IMG/VR virus record: IMGVR_UViG_2711768023_000009
Origin: a virus
Lineage: Duplodnaviria; Heunggongvirae; Uroviricota; Caudoviricetes
DNA: 8,305 nt
Reading direction: 5' to 3' (one strand)
Positions 607 through 8,305 of this stretch are shown piece after piece. A program made the position numbers and the translations under genes. Within the stretch, counting starts at the first letter, position 1, and each line of letters starts with the position of its first letter. The notes under the pieces are model-generated. The model did not search any database, had not been told where the DNA came from, and saw nothing but the letters and a program-made list of their open reading frames with translations.

Positions 607-625
607 CCGATAGCACAGGTCTGTC

Positions 626-999
626 GGGGGGGTGCCCCTATTAAGTTGTCAAGCATGTTATGACCCCTGCGGGGTATAAAAAGTCCCGTCGCGCATCATG
701 GCGAACAGAACGTCGCAGCGTCGTCTCGCCAGGGCGATAAGCGCCTGATTGTGTCGTTTTCCCTGACTCATTTTGCGGGTGTAGTAAGCCCTGGAGAGCG
801 GATCCCTGAGCGCGGCGAAGGCCGACAGGAACAACGCCCGTTTGAGAGCTTTATTACCCCGTCGCGAGGGATGCTCACCGCGTATTGACGAGCCGGATCG
901 CCGAGTTACCGGCGCAAGGCCAGCATAAGCAGCGAGATGTGCGGCAGAGGCGAAGGCGCGGCAGGCGACCTCGGTGAGGAGTCTGGCTGCGGTCCTGAC
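626..999. repeat. Exact direct duplicate of 1054-1426 (IS110-family element 3' terminus plus 3' end of its transposase gene), abutting an N run
   Basis: Read directly: from the G-run at 626-632 through 999 the sequence is identical base for base to 1054-1426. The minus-strand ORF 658-1083 is the duplicated transposase C-terminus running into the Ns. Confidence 0.95.
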
Positions 1000-1053: not shown

Positions 1054-1084
1054 GGGGGGTGCCCCTATTAAGTTGTCAAGCATG

Positions 1085-2281
1085 TTATGACCCCTGCGGG
1101 GTATAAAAAGTCCCGTCGCGCATCATGGCGAACAGAACGTCGCAGCGTCGTCTCGCCAGGGCGATAAGCGCCTGATTGTGTCGTTTTCCCTGACTCATTT
1201 TGCGGGTGTAGTAAGCCCTGGAGAGCGGATCCCTGAGCGCGGCGAAGGCCGACAGGAACAACGCCCGTTTGAGAGCTTTATTACCCCGTCGCGAGGGATG
1301 CTCACCGCGTATTGACGAGCCGGATCGCCGAGTTACCGGCGCAAGGCCAGCATAAGCAGCGAGATGTGCGGCAGAGGCGAAGGCGCGGCAGGCGACCTCG
1401 GTGAGGAGTCTGGCTGCGGTCCTGACACCGACTCCGGGCATACTGGTCAGGACCGGGTAAAGAGGGTGAGCAAGAACTCGCTGTTCTACCTCAAGCGCCA
1501 CCTCGTCTCTTTGCTTACGCAGCGTGATGAGCTGGAGTGCCAGACGTGGCAGTACTACGGCAGCGGCATTCGTGCCGGGAACGACGACGGTTTGTTCGGC
1601 CAGTGCCTGAGCTATGTCTGCTGCAAGGCGTTTACCCAGACGAGGCGCAAGTTTGCAGAGCTGGGCTGCCAGCTTCTTCTCACCCAGCGAAGCGAGTTTT
1701 TCTGGTGAGGGATATCGCTGGAGAAGATCGAGTACCGCCGGGTGCTCAAGTCTCGGACCGAGAACGCGCTCCAGTGCCGGATGTATCTGGGTCAGAAGGC
1801 CGCGGATACGGTTGCTGGCCTGCGTTGTCTGTGCGGCAAGATCATCATCGAAGCCGCAGAGCATGGAGAGTTCGGCGATTTGCTCGTCAGCCAGTTTCAG
1901 CGTGCGTAGCGCGTGAGGCAGGGTACGGGCAGCTTCGGCAATGATGGCAGCGTCACGAGCATCAGTTTTAGCTTCACCGGCGTGTAAGTCGGCTATGCGG
2001 CGCATGGCCAGTCCAGGGAGGTATCCGACAAGGACTCCTTCTGAGCGGGCAACGGCGACAGGTAACGCACCGATGGTAGCTGGCTGATCAACAACCAGCA
2101 GTATCTGACCATGTTGTTTCAGGTCAGATATTAGCGACCTGAGTTTGTTTTCGTCGTTGGGTAATGCTTTATCGAACAGGCGTTTACCTGAACGATTAAT
2201 GGCAACAGCGTGATGCGTATCTTTACCGACATCAACGCCGATAAAGACCTGGACGGATTCGTAATCGCTGGATTCGGTCAT
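1085..2281 (-). CDS. IS110-family transposase/recombinase (DEDD-type), 398 aa
   Basis: ORF of 398 aa. N-terminal RuvC-like DEDD motifs (VFIGVDVGKDTHHAVAI; KTDARDAAIIAEAAR) and C-terminal Transposase_20-type region (PGVGVRTAARLLTEV; YAGLAPVTRRSGSSIRG...RRGNKALKRAL with the conserved Ser). Shine-Dalgarno-like gggag lies 5 nt upstream of the ATG on the minus strand. I do not recognise the specific IS name. Confidence 0.9.
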   Translation of the reverse strand: MTESSDYESVQVFIGVDVGKDTHHAVAINRSGKRLFDKALPNDENKLRSLISDLKQHGQILLVVDQPATIGALPVAVARSEGVLVGYLPGLAMRRIADLHAGEAKTDARDAAIIAEAARTLPHALRTLKLADEQIAELSMLCGFDDDLAAQTTQASNRIRGLLTQIHPALERVLGPRLEHPAVLDLLQRYPSPEKLASLGEKKLAAQLCKLAPRLGKRLAADIAQALAEQTVVVPGTNAAAVVLPRLALQLITLRKQRDEVALEVEQRVLAHPLYPVLTSMPGVGVRTAARLLTEVACRAFASAAHLAAYAGLAPVTRRSGSSIRGEHPSRRGNKALKRALFLSAFAALRDPLSRAYYTRKMSQGKRHNQALIALARRRCDVLFAMMRDGTFYTPQGS

Positions 2282-2292
2282 TCTGTCTCCCT

Positions 2293-2512
2293 TGTATATG
2301 GGTTAACCAGATAACCACGGGGAGCAGGTACCGGCATCCACGTTACAGACGGTCCCGGCAAAAGTGCCTGACCTGACCCCTATTAGCGGTTACCAGCGCC
2401 CCACCAGACCCGGTGACATCACCCCCCGGATCATGGACGACTGGGGGCAGTAATCATGCCGGGTCTGGCTGGCTAACACCCCATTATAAGGGGTACGAAT
2501 AAAGTAACGGGG
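2293..2512 (-). ncRNA. Candidate bridge RNA / structured 5' non-coding RNA of the IS110-family element (truncated by gap)
   Basis: About 220 nt of GC-rich non-coding sequence immediately 5' of the transposase. Several hairpins are visible, e.g. cccgg-at-catg ... catg-ccggg (about 2428-2467), ggtgacatcacc (about 2418-2429) and cccc-attataa-gggg (about 2483-2497). A 9-mer cccctatta (2377-2385) also occurs at the opposite IS terminus (635-643). IS110-group elements are known to encode a bridge RNA in this position. Boundaries are unknown. Confidence 0.3.
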
Positions 2513-2996
2513 NNNNNNNNNNNNNNNNNNNNNNNNNNNNNNNNNNNNNNNNNNNNNNNNNNNNNNNNNNNNNNNNNNNNNNNNNNNNNNNNNNNNNNNN
2601 NNNNNNNNNNNNNNNNNNNNNNNNNNNNNNNNNNNNNNNNNNNNNNNNNNNNNNNNNNNNNNNNNNNNNNNNNNNNNNNNNNNNNNNNNNNNNNNNNNNN
2701 NNNNNNNNNNNNNNNNNNNNNNNNNNNNNNNNNNNNNNNNNNNNNNNNNNNNNNNNNNNNNNNNNNNNNNNNNNNNNNNNNNNNNNNNNNNNNNNNNNNN
2801 NNNNNNNNNNNNNNNNNNNNNNNNNNNNNNNNNNNNNNNNNNNNNNNNNNNNNNNNNNNNNNNNNNNNNNNNNNNNNNNNNNNNNNNNNNNNNNNNNNNN
2901 NNNNNNNNNNNNNNNNNNNNNNNNNNNNNNNNNNNNNNNNNNNNNNNNNNNNNNNNNNNNNNNNNNNNNNNNNNNNNNNNNNNNNNNNNNNNNNNN
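2513..2996. other. Assembly gap (484 N); hides the 5' end of the IS and the region just upstream of the holin
   Basis: Run of N. Confidence 0.99.
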
Positions 2997-3006
2997 GGGG
3001 CGGGAT

Positions 3007-3222
3007 ATGTATCAGATGGAAAAAATATCAACAGGCATTGCCTACGGCACCTCCGCCGGCAGTGCCGGCTACTGGTTTTTGCAGTGGTTGGATCAGGTCA
3101 GTCCATCACAGTGGGCTGCGATTGGTGTGCTGGGAAGTCTGCTTCTGGGGCTTCTGACTTATCTGACAAATCTGTATTTCAAAATAAGAGAAGACAAGCG
3201 TAAGGCTGCGAGAGGTGAATAA
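3007..3222 (+). CDS. S: Holin/antiholin, phage-21 S-like pinholin, 71 aa with dual-start motif
   Basis: 71-aa [74 protein letters not shown], near-identical from recollection to the phage 21 S pinholin. Met1 and Met4 give the 71/68-aa dual-start arrangement, and there are two hydrophobic helices and a charged C-terminus. The stop overlaps the next start (TAATG). Confidence 0.9.
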
Positions 3223-3595: not shown

Positions 3596-3925
3596 NNNNN
3601 NNNNNNNNNNNNNNNNNNNNNNNNNNNNNNNNNNNNNNNNNNNNNNNNNNNNNNNNNNNNNNNNNNNNNNNNNNNNNNNNNNNNNNNNNNNNNNNNNNNN
3701 NNNNNNNNNNNNNNNNNNNNNNNNNNNNNNNNNNNNNNNNNNNNNNNNNNNNNNNNNNNNNNNNNNNNNNNNNNNNNNNNNNNNNNNNNNNNNNNNNNNN
3801 NNNNNNNNNNNNNNNNNNNNNNNNNNNNNNNNNNNNNNNNNNNNNNNNNNNNNNNNNNNNNNNNNNNNNNNNNNNNNNNNNNNNNNNNNNNNNNNNNNNN
3901 NNNNNNNNNNNNNNNNNNNNNNNNN
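3596..3925. other. Assembly gap (330 N); hides endolysin 3' end and the starts of Rz and Rz1
   Basis: Run of N. Confidence 0.99.
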
Positions 3926-7035: not shown

Positions 7036-8191
7036 TGTTCTTTTCGGGATTATTTCAACGAAAAAGCGATGTGCCGGTGACCACGCCAGCAGAACTGCTG
7101 ATGCTATCGGGCTGTCATACGACACCTATACCGGAAAGCGGATCAGTAGCCAGCGGGCCATGCGCCTGACGGCGGTCTATTCTTGCGTCAGGGTGCTGGC
7201 AGAGTCTGTTGGTATGCTGCCCTGCAGTCTCTACAAAATCAGCGGTACCCTGAAAACACGGGCGGTGGATGAACGACTGCATAAGTTGGTTTCGGCAAAA
7301 CCTAATGGCTACATGACACCGCAGGAATTCTGGGAGCTGGTTATTGTCTGCCTGTGTCTACGGGGGAATTTTTACGCCTACAAGGTAAAGGCACTGGGAG
7401 AAGTGGTGGAGCTTCTTCCGATAGATCCGGGCTGTGTGGAACCGAAGCTGAACAGCCAGTGGCAGCCGGTTTATCAGGTGACGTTTCCGGATGGTTCCGT
7501 GGATGTGTTGACCCAGAATGAAATCTGGCATGTGCGCACCCTGACGCTGGATGGACTTGTCGGGCTGAATCCCATTGCGTATGCGCGTGAGGCCATTTCA
7601 CTGGCAGCGGCAACCGAGGAGCACGGTGCCAGGTTGTTTAGTAATGGTGCGGTGACATCCGGTGTGTTGCGTACGGAACAAAAGCTCACGCCGGATGCTT
7701 ACGAGCGTCTGAAGAAAGATTTTGAGGAGTGTCACACGGGGCTTGGCAATGCTCACCGCCCGATGATTCTGGAAATGGGGCTGGACTGGAAGTCGATGGC
7801 GCTGAACGCCGAGGACAGTCAGTTCCTGGAAACCCGCAAGTTTCAGCTGGAAGAAATCTGTCGTCTGTTCCGGGTGCCGTTGCACATGGTGCAGAACACC
7901 GATCGCGCCACCTTCAACAATATCGAAGAGCTGGGGCTGGGATTTATCAACTATTCACTGGTGCCGTATCTGACCCGCATCGAACAGCGGATCAACACCG
8001 GACTGGTACGAAAAAGTAAGCAGGGCGTTTATTACGCCAAATTTAACGCCGGGGCGTTACTGCGCGGGGATATGAAGTCCCGTTTTGAAGCCTACGCCAC
8101 CGGGATCAACTGGGGAATTTACTCTTCCAATGACTGCCGCGACCTGGAAGATATGAATCCGCGTCCCGGTGGTGTAATGCCGATCAGTTAA
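7035..8191 (+). CDS. Portal protein (HK97 family) with an apparent one-base frameshift near the 5' end (possible pseudogene or sequencing error)
   Basis: GTG at 7035 is preceded by a strong Shine-Dalgarno (ggaggt 7024-7029, 5-nt spacer) and opens a portal-like N-terminus MFFSGLFQRKSDVPVTTPAELLMLSG..., which hits TGA at 7167-7169. The rest of the portal (…YDTYTGKRISSQRAMRLTAVYSCVRVLAESVGMLPCSLYK… to stop 8189-8191) is in the -1 frame. One extra G in the run at 7109-7111 would fuse them into a 385-aa protein. The ORF track's 6944 start overlaps the small ORF and translates to implausible Cys/Arg/Trp-rich sequence. Confidence 0.8.
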
Positions 8192-8224
8192 GGATCAGTT
8201 GACCGATCCAGTGGCTGTGTAAGA

Positions 8225-8259
8225 ATCCGGAAACGCTCACTTGTTTCCGGATTTTTTTA
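8225..8259 (+). terminator. Rho-independent terminator downstream of the portal gene
   Basis: 10-bp stem atccggaaac (8225-8234) / gtttccggat (8243-8252), 8-nt loop, followed by ttttttt (8253-8259). Oriented for the + strand only. Confidence 0.6.
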
Positions 8260-8305
8260 TGCACATTGGACAGGCTCTTGATCTGGTATCCCGTTACGAT
8301 TCTCT

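What the first reader, a model, noticed from the sequence alone, without database searches (positions are those of the whole stretch)
2293..2512. Candidate bridge RNA in the 5' non-coding region of an IS110-family element
The transposase at 1085-2281 (minus strand) has only about 30 bp of non-coding DNA on its 3' side but at least 220 bp of GC-rich, hairpin-rich non-coding sequence on its 5' side before the N run. That asymmetry is what is expected for IS110-subgroup elements, which encode a bridge RNA upstream of the recombinase to specify target and donor DNA. A 9-mer, cccctatta, occurs both at the IS 3' terminus (635-643, again at 1062-1070) and inside this region (2377-2385), which could reflect a donor-binding guide matching the element end. 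Rough chance expectation for a 9-mer shared between these two specific short regions is a few percent, so this is suggestive, not proof. The element cannot be fully delimited because its 5' end is in the gap.
Basis: partly seen in the sequence, partly recalled or inferred. Interest (0 to 1): 0.6.

Follow-up and report, generated by a model that had tools for sequence, protein, structure and literature searches.

The report
Bridge RNA of insertion sequence ISEc20

Summary
The element on the minus strand is ISEc20 (IS110 group), found in 1463 of 5426 complete E. coli genomes. Its left end is complete, not lost in the gap: the insertion sequence (IS) ends at window 2510-2512. In 46 relatives from Proteobacteria and Actinobacteria, the 231-nt left non-coding end keeps a 5' hairpin and two long stem-loops, each with a large internal loop. 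96.9% of cells pair, 18 of 28 pairs show compensatory changes, and 0 of 500 shuffles reach this. A G/A change there tracks the same change in the right end (47 G/G, 14 A/A, 3 discordant; probably two separate switches). The 3' side of that loop complements the left-end start. The first loop matches the insertion target, a C tract (CCCC|CCCCC). Occupied and empty sites place the crossover at a 2-nt core, AC in the donor and CC in the target. With that junction, a conserved TTGACA lies 17 nt from TACTTT, forming a promoter. Durrant et al. 2024 (Supplementary Table 5) already list a left-end bridge RNA for the ISSfl4/ISEc20 cluster. No expression data were available.

The parts
1059..2510 (-). 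ISEc20 core to core, about 1452 bp. The right end is written a second time at 632-999 because of the scaffold duplication.
   Evidence: 100% identical to RefSeq copies annotated as IS110-like element ISEc20. Boundaries come from alignment of four copies and from occupied/empty site pairs.
1085..2281 (-). DEDD recombinase (transposase), 398 aa.
   Evidence: Pfam DEDD_Tnp_IS110 and Transposase_20.
2282..2512 (-). Left non-coding end, 231 nt. 2511-2512 (CC) are probably target-derived, 2509-2510 (CC) are the core copy, and 2504-2508 (GTTAC) start the right-donor half.
2501..2506 (-). TACTTT, the predicted -10 box of the promoter that forms only at the circle junction.
   Evidence: Lies 17 nt from the right-end TTGACA when the junction is GGGGCAC-GTTAC. 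The -35/-10 arrangement is conserved in relatives. Inferred from sequence; not tested.
1074..1079 (-). TTGACA, the predicted -35 box in the right end (second written copy at 647-652).
   Evidence: TTGAC(A/G) is conserved at this place in nearly all relatives' right ends (L017 is an exception).
2318..2494 (-). Predicted bridge RNA transcript, about 177 nt, from the inferred start site (A at 2494) to the end of the second stem-loop.
   Evidence: MFE -82.6 kcal/mol, z = -2.27, giving a 5' hairpin plus two long stem-loops. IS621 has the same layout and length (177 nt) and starts 15 nt into its left end. The transcript ends are inferred.
2478..2494 (-). 5' hairpin ACCCCUUAUAAUGGGGU.
   Evidence: By eye in A3 the stem changes on both sides (ACCCC/GGGGU, GCCUCG/CGAGGC, ACCUUGA/UCAAGGU); this was not counted formally.
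2403..2469 (-). First stem-loop, the target-binding loop. The outer stem is 2459-2469 paired with 2403-2413.
   Evidence: 11 pairs, 6 with compensatory changes, 98.2% of cells paired.
2443..2449 (-). Left target guide UGCCCCC (possibly extended 5' by AC at 2450-2451), on the 5' side of loop 1.
   Evidence: Same sense as the left flank plus core: CCCC in 17-18 of 18 ISEc20 sites at positions -4 to -1, and C or G at -5 in 15 of 18. The yecD site ATG-CCCCC matches all 7 nt.
2420..2427 (-). Right target guide GGGGG, core complement GU, and one handshake G, on the 3' side of loop 1.
   Evidence: Complementary to the right junction top strand CA-CCCCCC (inverted repeat I4). The right flank is CCCCC at positions +2 to +6 in 15-17 of 19 sites. 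Nearly invariant in relatives.
2320..2401 (-). Second stem-loop, the donor-binding loop. The outer stem is 2387-2401 paired with 2320-2333, and the inner stem-loop is 2351-2373.
   Evidence: The outer helix has 12 pairs, 8 with compensatory changes. The inner helices have 5 pairs, 4 compensatory.
2374..2385 (-). Left donor guide UAAUAGGGG(U)CA, on the 5' side of loop 2.
   Evidence: Identical to the right-end top strand TAATAGGGG-CA (1060-1070, also 633-643). The seventh position (G or A) covaries with the right end: 47 G/G, 14 A/A, 3 discordant. The A-type elements form two groups that are each closer to G-type elements than to each other.
2338..2346 (-). Right donor guide GUAAC, core complement GU, and handshake GG, on the 3' side of loop 2.
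   Evidence: GUAACGU is the exact complement of AC-GTTAC, the donor core plus left-end start. GG complements the CC that precedes the core in the left flank. Invariant in 46 relatives, so there is conservation but no covariation.
1059..1070 (-). Left donor half TAATAGGGGC plus donor core AC (second written copy at 632-643).
621..631 (-). Right half of the insertion target, CCCCCC-GACAG, upstream of the prophage holin. The left half is the reverse complement of 2997-3018 (...ATATCCCGCCCC).
   Evidence: Same insertion, complete, in L101. Uninterrupted site in L006 and L007.

Best explanation
Window 2282-2512 (minus strand) is the complete left end of ISEc20. It encodes an IS110-type bridge RNA of about 177 nt.

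Proposed mechanism, by analogy with IS621:
1. Excision joins the right end to the left end as ...TTGACA-N17-TACTTT... across a junction GGGGC-AC-GTTAC. This creates a sigma-70 promoter that fires at the first base of a 5' hairpin.
2. The RNA then forms two stem-loops, each with a large internal loop.
3. The second loop holds the donor. Its 5' strand, (UA)AUAGGGG(U)CA, has the sense of the right-end top strand and so pairs with the bottom strand. [quoted passage not shown]
4. The first loop holds the target. Its 5' strand, UGCCCCC, has the sense of the left target half plus core. Its 3' strand, GGGGG-GU, pairs with the core plus a CCCCC right half.
5. The DEDD recombinase exchanges strands at a 2-nt core, AC in the donor and CC in most targets. 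The G and GG that follow the core complements act as handshake guides for the incoming strand.

The preferred target is therefore a C tract of about 9-10 nt, (G)CCCC|CCCCC.

Shown here: element identity and limits; the conserved, covarying fold; all guide-to-DNA matches; covariation between the left donor guide and the right end; the crossover position; and the conserved junction promoter motifs.

Inferred only: transcription, the RNA ends, binding to the recombinase, and the chemistry.
For: - **Identity and limits.** ISEc20, 100% identical to RefSeq copies. Ends defined by four copies.
- **Fold.** The RNAalifold consensus gives two long stem-loops. For the 28 stem pairs I specified, 96.9% of cells pair, 18 pairs have changes on both sides, 0 of 500 shuffles reach any measure, and slid controls fall to 29-52% paired.
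- **Donor guides.** The loop-2 5' strand equals the right end, and G/A covaries (47 G/G, 14 A/A, 3 discordant). The two A-type groups share at most 81% protein identity with each other but 83-87% with G-type elements. The loop-2 3' strand GUAACGU complements AC-GTTAC.
- **Crossover.**
  - The empty yecD site is GATG-CCCCC-T-CCCCC-GCT. The occupied site is GATG-CCCCC|GTTAC...GGGGCA|C-T-CCCCC-GCT.
  - AC is retained at the left junction in L031 and L086, and CC appears at the right junction in L028.
  - Deletion junctions read GGGGCA|CGTTAC.
- **Target logo.** CCCC before GTTAC and CCCCC after GGGGCA-C, in 18/19 ISEc20 flanks and 55/41 flanks of relatives.
- **Promoter.** TTGAC(A/G), 17-18 nt, then TAC(T/C)(T/A)T, conserved in nearly all relatives checked, but only if the junction carries a single C.
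- **Literature.**
  - Strand rules and the two-loop model come from PMC11208160.
  - Handshake guides come from PMC11208158.
  - The IS621 RNA is 177 nt and starts 15 nt into its left end.
  - Supplementary Table 5 lists ISSfl4 (cluster ISEc20;ISSfl4) with the bridge RNA in the left end.
Against: - No transcript, binding or activity data were available.
- No Rfam family matched, even at E <= 10.
- The target guides and the right donor guide are invariant across the family. Their pairing therefore rests on complementarity and on the target logo, not on covariation.
- The 4 variable nucleotides 5' of the C run in loop 1 do not clearly track the flanks.
- Donor core (AC) and target core (CC) differ, unlike IS621, where both are CT. 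The left donor guide reaches the core only with one bulged U.
- The uninterrupted site for this very insertion has 6 C (L006) or 4 C (L007), but the model implies about 10 C. This needs an unseen longer-tract progenitor.
- The thermodynamic z-score is modest (-2.1 to -2.3).
Confidence: 0.9

Rival explanations
1. The left end is only a structured 5' leader or promoter region that controls transposase expression, for example by translational occlusion or attenuation. It has no guide role, and the sequence matches to the element's ends are incidental.
For: The second stem-loop ends 38 nt before the ATG, and a GGGAG ribosome-binding site follows it. The hairpin-1 loop carries TATAAT/GATAAT in proteobacterial members. 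Conserved stems alone would also fit a leader.
Against: A leader gives no reason for the loop-2 5' strand to change G to A together with the right end, 1.4 kb away, apparently twice. It also does not explain why the four unpaired strands match, in the IS621 strand orientation, the right end, the left-end start and both halves of the target.
Confidence: 0.05
2. The 9-mer shared between 2377-2385 and the right end is a chance repeat in a GC-rich element, or a short subterminal repeat bound by the protein, rather than an RNA guide.
For: Five other 9-10-mers recur within 560-2512. One of the three reported occurrences is an assembly duplicate.
Against: The ATAGGGR core of the match is kept in 61 of 64 related loci and covaries. 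It sits exactly on the 5' strand of an internal loop flanked by covarying stems. The repeat is direct, not inverted, which is what an RNA of top-strand sense needs but not what a symmetric protein site needs.
Confidence: 0.03
3. The guide RNA lies 3' of the gene, as in the IS1111 subgroup (seekRNA type), and the left-end structure is something else.
For: None found. This was considered only because the family contains both arrangements (PMC11187229).
Against: Only 26 nt lie between the stop codon and the right-end core; in some relatives the stop codon lies inside ATAGGGGCA. Durrant 2024 Supplementary Table 5 places the cluster in the IS110 group with the RNA in the left end.
Confidence: 0.01

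Closest known systems
IS621 bridge RNA (Durrant et al. 2024, PMC11208160; Hiraizumi et al. 2024, PMC11208158)
   Same: - A DEDD recombinase with the RNA encoded in the long left end.
- A -35 box in the right end and a -10 box in the left end, joined only in the circle.
- An RNA of about 177 nt that starts about 15 nt into the left end with a 5' hairpin.
- A target loop first and a donor loop second.
- 5' strands with top-strand sense, and 3' strands complementary to the top strand.
- A 2-nt core, with handshake positions after the core complements.
- A left donor guide that matches only the first core base: IS621 ACAGUAUC-A against ACAGTAT-CT, and here ...GGGG(U)C-A against ...GGGGC-AC.
   Different: - There is no detectable sequence similarity; I aligned nothing to IS621 beyond comparing layouts.
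- The recombinase is 398 aa, against 326 aa for IS621.
- The target is a C homopolymer-like tract, not a REP-type sequence.
- The donor core (AC) and usual target core (CC) differ.
- The target guides are nearly invariant across 46 relatives from two phyla, so the family looks fixed on one target rather than diversified.
ISSfl4/ISEc20 entry in Durrant et al. 2024, Supplementary Table 5
   Same: It is the same element cluster. The table reads 'Detected Bridge RNA End: LE; IS110 Group: IS110; Clustered Elements: ISEc20;ISSfl4'.
   Different: In the parts I read, the table gives only the end in which a covariance model hit was found. The guide assignment, core, target motif and junction promoter given here are my own derivation.
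ISEc21 seekRNA (Siddiquee et al. 2024, PMC11187229)
   Same: An IS110-type element of E. coli with an upstream non-coding region. That region is needed for circle formation and insertion, and a promoter forms at the joined ends.
   Different: The recombinase belongs to a different size class (358 aa, cluster range 345-385 aa). The functional RNA is described as short (58-74 nt). The target lies in IS3-family transposase genes. No comparison of sequence or fold was made here.

Membership tests
IS110 family, IS110 subgroup | DEDD (RuvC-like) N-terminal domain plus a C-terminal Tnp domain. | tested here: met
   PF01548 at 6.9e-49 and PF02371 at 7.1e-22.
IS110 family, IS110 subgroup | The left non-coding end is much longer than the right non-coding end (the reverse holds in IS1111). 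| tested here: met
   231 nt against 26 nt. Durrant 2024 Supplementary Table 5 lists the cluster as IS110 with the RNA in the left end.
IS110 family, IS110 subgroup | No long subterminal inverted repeats and no target duplication beyond the core. | tested here: met
   No terminal or subterminal inverted repeat was found between the ends. The yecD occupied/empty pair shows that only one base is shared.
Bridge RNA (IS110-type guide RNA) | Two internal loops, each closed by conserved stems that covary. | tested here: met
   18 of 28 pairs compensatory, 96.9% of cells paired, 0 of 500 shuffles.
Bridge RNA (IS110-type guide RNA) | [quoted passage not shown] Both reach the core. | tested here: met
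   UAAUAGGGG(U)CA against TAATAGGGGCA, with G/A covariation. GUAACGU against ACGTTAC. The left guide reaches only the first core base, and only with one bulge.
Bridge RNA (IS110-type guide RNA) | Target loop: the 5' strand equals the left target half plus core, and the 3' strand complements the core plus the right target half. | tested here: met
   UGCCCCC and GGGGG-GU against the target logo (G/C)CCCC|CCCCC and empty sites C5-T-C5. The guides are invariant, so there is no covariation test.
Bridge RNA (IS110-type guide RNA) | Identical core dinucleotide in donor and target. | tested here: not met
   The donor core is AC. Most targets have CC, and some have TC or AC. Only the second base is shared. 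IS621 tolerates some core mismatches according to PMC11208160, so this is a difference of degree.
Bridge RNA (IS110-type guide RNA) | A promoter is reconstituted across the right-end/left-end junction of the circle. | tested here: inconclusive
   TTGACA-17 nt-TACTTT is present and conserved by sequence. No circle junction or transcript was observed.
Bridge RNA (IS110-type guide RNA) | The RNA is expressed, binds the recombinase and is required for recombination. | not testable with these tools
   No expression or biochemical data were available.
Bridge RNA (IS110-type guide RNA) | A hit to the published covariance models. | not testable with these tools
   Rfam 15 gave no hit at gathering score or at E <= 10. 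The authors' own models are not available here, but their table reports a left-end hit for this cluster.

The most novel reading that the evidence does not exclude
The ISEc20 family is a natural 'fixed-guide' bridge system, with three distinctive traits.
- Both target guides are frozen (CCCCC / GGGGG) from enterobacteria to actinobacteria, so every member aims at C tracts of about 9-10 nt.
- Donor core (AC) and target core (CC) differ by design. This leaves either base at either junction after replication.
- The donor loop can also capture genomic CGTTAC pseudo-sites next to the element, producing RNA-guided adjacent deletions such as the ~580-bp ibsA-mdtA deletion.

This would be a variant of the IS621 scheme in which target choice rests on a hypermutable homopolymer rather than on a unique sequence.
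Probability: 0.45. Interest if true: 0.4.

Novelty: already known. Interest (0 to 1): 0.25.

Why it matters
The practical gains are small.
- It gives exact limits, core, guides and junction promoter for ISEc20.
- It gives a target rule, C tracts of about 9-10 nt. This explains the element's low copy number and why it sits in homopolymer tracts inside genes (yecD, dgcE, rtcB) and upstream of a prophage holin.
- It warns that the N runs and the duplicated right end in this scaffold are assembly artefacts.

The mismatched core and the deletions at pseudo-donor sites could interest people who engineer bridge recombinases, but they need experiments.

Tried and rejected
- **Rfam.** Searches at gathering score over the whole window, and at E <= 10 over 2200-2512, gave only chance-level plus-strand hits to snoRNA and CRISPR-repeat models.
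- **Literature.** Searches for ISEc20 and ISSfl4 found no paper describing the RNA of this element.
- **Crossover models considered and rejected:**
  - (A) The element ends in CACCCC plus a CC core. This was rejected because the yecD pair shows the right-hand Cs, including an internal T, come from the target.
  - (D) A 5-6-nt C-run overlap. This was rejected for the same reason, and because it would put the -35 and -10 boxes 21 nt apart.
  - (E) A CA core with CGTTAC as the right donor half. This predicts left junctions 2 nt longer than those observed.
- **Specificity of the variable loop-1 bases.** I looked for covariation between the 4 variable bases 5' of the C run in loop 1 and the left flanks, and found no clear signal beyond a G or T just before the run.
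- **rtcB and dgcE empty sites.** These were uninformative because the C-rich stretch varies in length between strains, with 7-11 extra nt.
- **Coding alternative.** The left end looks translatable upstream of the start codon in many relatives ('PSVTWMPRL'). This is nucleotide conservation, not coding: ISEc20 has an in-frame stop, and the alignment has 1-nt indels and paired substitutions.
- **ORF 2390-3031(-).** This ORF runs through the N run and is spurious.

Full report
**What is in the window.** The window is a scaffold of an E. coli lambdoid prophage late region. It carries a P21-type holin, lysozyme, HNH endonuclease, small and large terminase subunits and a portal protein. Three N runs lie at 1000-1053, 2513-2996 and 3596-3925.

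On the minus strand lies a 398-aa ORF (1085-2281) with the two Pfam domains of IS110-family recombinases. The 1459 bases at 1054-2512 are 100% identical to RefSeq copies annotated 'IS110-like element ISEc20 family transposase'. Matches occur in 1463 of 5426 complete E. coli genomes, at 2387 places, with a median of one per genome.

**The observation.** The asymmetry is real. 231 nt (57% GC) lie 5' of the gene, and 26 nt lie between the stop codon and the right-end core. CCCCTATTA is at the three stated places; whole-window shuffles expect 0.03 matches.

Two cautions apply:
- 627-999 is an exact copy of 1054-1426. One right end has been written twice around a gap, so the 9-mer has two independent occurrences, not three.
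- Five other 9-10-mers also recur inside 560-2512, so the repeat is not persuasive by itself.

Four complete copies diverge from each other exactly upstream of CCCCGTTAC, which is window 2512-2504, and downstream of ...AATAGGGGCACCCCCC. A complete genome (CP179952.1, locus L101) has this same insertion, with left flank CATCTGATACATATCCCGCCCC|GTTAC. That flank is the reverse complement of the contig starting at window 2997. The 484-N run therefore hides no element sequence.

**A conserved fold.** A protein-based scan of one genome per species returned 80 loci. These were ISEc20 copies in E. coli and Shigella, plus relatives at 73-82% amino-acid identity in Burkholderiales, Oxalobacteraceae, Microbacteriaceae and others. 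I aligned 46 left ends (A3).

RNAalifold predicts two long stem-loops. I kept only the 28 stem pairs outside the conserved unpaired blocks and counted them:
- 96.9% of cells form a standard pair.
- 18 pairs have changes on both sides (108 cells).
- No shuffle out of 500 reaches any of the five measures.
- Sliding the 3' partners by 1-3 columns drops pairing to 29-52%.

Each stem-loop has an outer covarying stem, a large internal loop of nearly invariant sequence, and a small apical hairpin. A short hairpin precedes them; by eye its stem also changes on both sides. The single-sequence fold of 2318-2494(-) gives the same picture (-82.6 kcal/mol, z = -2.27). ISEc20 has an in-frame stop upstream of its ATG, and the alignment has 1-nt indels, so the conservation is not coding.

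**Donor loop.** According to Durrant et al., the 5' strand of each bridge-RNA loop pairs with the bottom DNA strand, so it reads like the top strand. The 3' strand pairs with the top strand, and the core is included (PMC11208160).

In relatives the shared part is ATAGGGR. Elements with ATAGGGA in the loop have ATAGGGA in the right end, and elements with ATAGGGG have ATAGGGG. The counts are 47 G/G, 14 A/A and 3 discordant, two of which have visibly decayed right ends.

The A-type elements fall into a Duganella group and an actinobacterial group. These share at most 81% protein identity with each other but 83-87% with G-type neighbours. The paired change therefore probably arose twice.

The 3' strand of loop 2 is GUAAC-GU-GG (2346-2338). 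It is the exact complement of AC-GTTAC, the donor core plus the left-end start, and it is invariant in all 46 sequences.

**Where the crossover is.** C runs flank both junctions, so I compared occupied and empty sites.
- *yecD.* The empty allele is GATG-CCCCC-T-CCCCC-GCTAAAG (L090). The occupied allele in CP179952.1 is GATG-CCCCC|GTTAC ... GGGGCA|C-T-CCCCC-GCTAAAG (L100). The element thus contributes GTTAC...GGGGCA plus one C, and the Cs to the right, with their internal T, belong to the target.
- *ibsA.* The ibsA-proximal site has the same C5-T-C5 empty allele (L091).
- *Base before the shared C.* This base varies. The left junction usually has CC-GTTAC but sometimes AC- or TC-. The right junction usually has GGGGC-AC but has CC in L028. 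That is what a 2-nt overlap with AC in the donor and CC in the target would leave after replication of the heteroduplex.

I therefore place the core at [A/C]C. On this reading the left donor half is ...ATAGGGGC, the right donor half is GTTAC..., and the circle junction is GGGGC-AC-GTTAC.

Two independent right junctions read GGGGCA|CGTTAC... next to unrelated DNA. One is in mdtA of E. coli and Shigella (L013 and L015, one locus), where the flanks are 881 bp apart in an intact strain. The other is in Cupriavidus (L052). They look like deletions ending at CGTTAC pseudo-sites, and they fix the same crossover point.

**Target loop.** Across 18 distinct left and 19 distinct right flanks of ISEc20:
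- Positions -4 to -1 before GTTAC are C in 17-18 cases, and position -5 is C or G in 15.
- After GGGGCA-C, the next five positions are C in 15-17 cases, with T the usual exception.
- The 55 left and 41 right flanks of relatives give the same logo.

The 5' strand of loop 1 is (AC)UGCCCCC (2449-2443). The 3' strand is GGGGG-GU-G (2427-2420), the complement of C-AC-CCCCC. So the loop reads (G)CCCC|CCCCC, with the core complement GU identical to that of the donor loop.

The single G after GU can pair with the last base of the left donor half, and the GG after GU in loop 2 can pair with the CC before the target core. These are the positions of the handshake guides described for IS621 (PMC11208158).

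Both target guides are invariant or nearly so in the family. Support for them therefore comes from the logo and the empty sites, not from covariation. The four variable bases 5' of the C run do not clearly follow the flanks.

**Junction promoter.** With the junction GGGGCAC-GTTAC, the right-end TTGACA (1079-1074) lies 17 nt from TACTTT (2506-2501). Seven bases further on is the A that opens the 5' hairpin (2494).

TTGAC(A/G), often overlapping the stop codon, and TAC(T/C)(T/A)T are conserved at 17-18 nt spacing in nearly all relatives checked. A junction with five Cs would give 21 nt. IS621 has the same arrangement, and its 177-nt RNA starts 15 nt into the left end. This part rests on sequence only.

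**Comparison with what is known.** The anatomy matches the IS621 bridge RNA point for point, except for three things:
- the unequal cores;
- the homopolymer-like target;
- the frozen target guides.

Membership in the IS110 subgroup is met on every feature tested.

Durrant et al. 2024, Supplementary Table 5, already lists 'ISSfl4 | LE | IS110 | ISEc20;ISSfl4'. A left-end bridge RNA has therefore been detected by covariance model for this cluster. I found no paper giving its guides, core or target. Rfam 15 returned nothing.

**Open points.**
- The uninterrupted alleles of this window's own site have 6 C (L006) or 4 C (L007) where the occupied site implies about 10. The tract is clearly length-polymorphic, but I did not find the long allele.
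- No expression or activity data exist here.

**Verdict.** The finding is correct and well supported by comparative evidence, but it describes a known kind of RNA in an element for which it had already been predicted. Interest is low to moderate.

Noticed in passing
window 627-999 and 1054-1426: The two stretches are exact 373-nt duplicates flanking the 54-N run. They are one ISEc20 right end written twice by the scaffolder, not two elements.
   Followed up: yes
window 2513-2996 (N run): CP179952.1 (L101) has the same insertion with the holin-side flank directly abutting CCCC|GTTAC. The 484-N gap therefore probably stands for little or no real sequence.
   Followed up: yes
window 626-631 and 2997-3000; loci L006, L007, L101: The C tract upstream of the P21-type holin varies in length between strains: 6 C, 4 C, and about 10 C implied by the occupied site. 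The long allele that the insertion model needs was not found.
   Followed up: partly
L013 and L015 (about 2390-2430), L091, L052 (about 2415-2440): The ISEc20 right end is joined directly to CGTTACC inside mdtA, and about 580 bp present in an intact strain are missing. An independent GGGGCA|CGTTACTAC junction occurs in a Cupriavidus relative. These may be deletions guided by the donor loop at pseudo-sites.
   Followed up: partly
alignment A3 (46 loci, L012-L086): The unpaired loop strands are almost invariant from Enterobacteriaceae to Microbacteriaceae, while the recombinases are only 73-82% identical to the window's. The whole family seems fixed on the same C-tract target, and very similar elements occur in two phyla.
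   Followed up: partly
window 2483-2488 (minus strand): The loop of the 5' hairpin reads TATAAT (GATAAT in Burkholderiales relatives). I found no good -35 box at 17 nt. It could be an internal promoter for the integrated state, or a protein contact.
   Followed up: no
L090 (yecD) and L091 (ibsA-mdtA intergenic): Two unrelated E. coli chromosomal sites used by ISEc20 share the motif CCCCC-T-CCCCC.
   Followed up: partly
L088, L089 (dgcE) and L005 (rtcB): The C-rich stretches where ISEc20 inserts in dgcE and rtcB differ in length between strains by several bases. The dgcE alleles in the two strains fetched are annotated as frameshifted (L088) or carrying an internal stop (L089).
   Followed up: no
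window 8160-8305: The portal ORF ends at 8191. It is followed by a hairpin with a T run (about 8228-8258), and the sequence after that looks unrelated to the phage morphogenesis genes. It may be a junction or a scaffold join.
   Followed up: no
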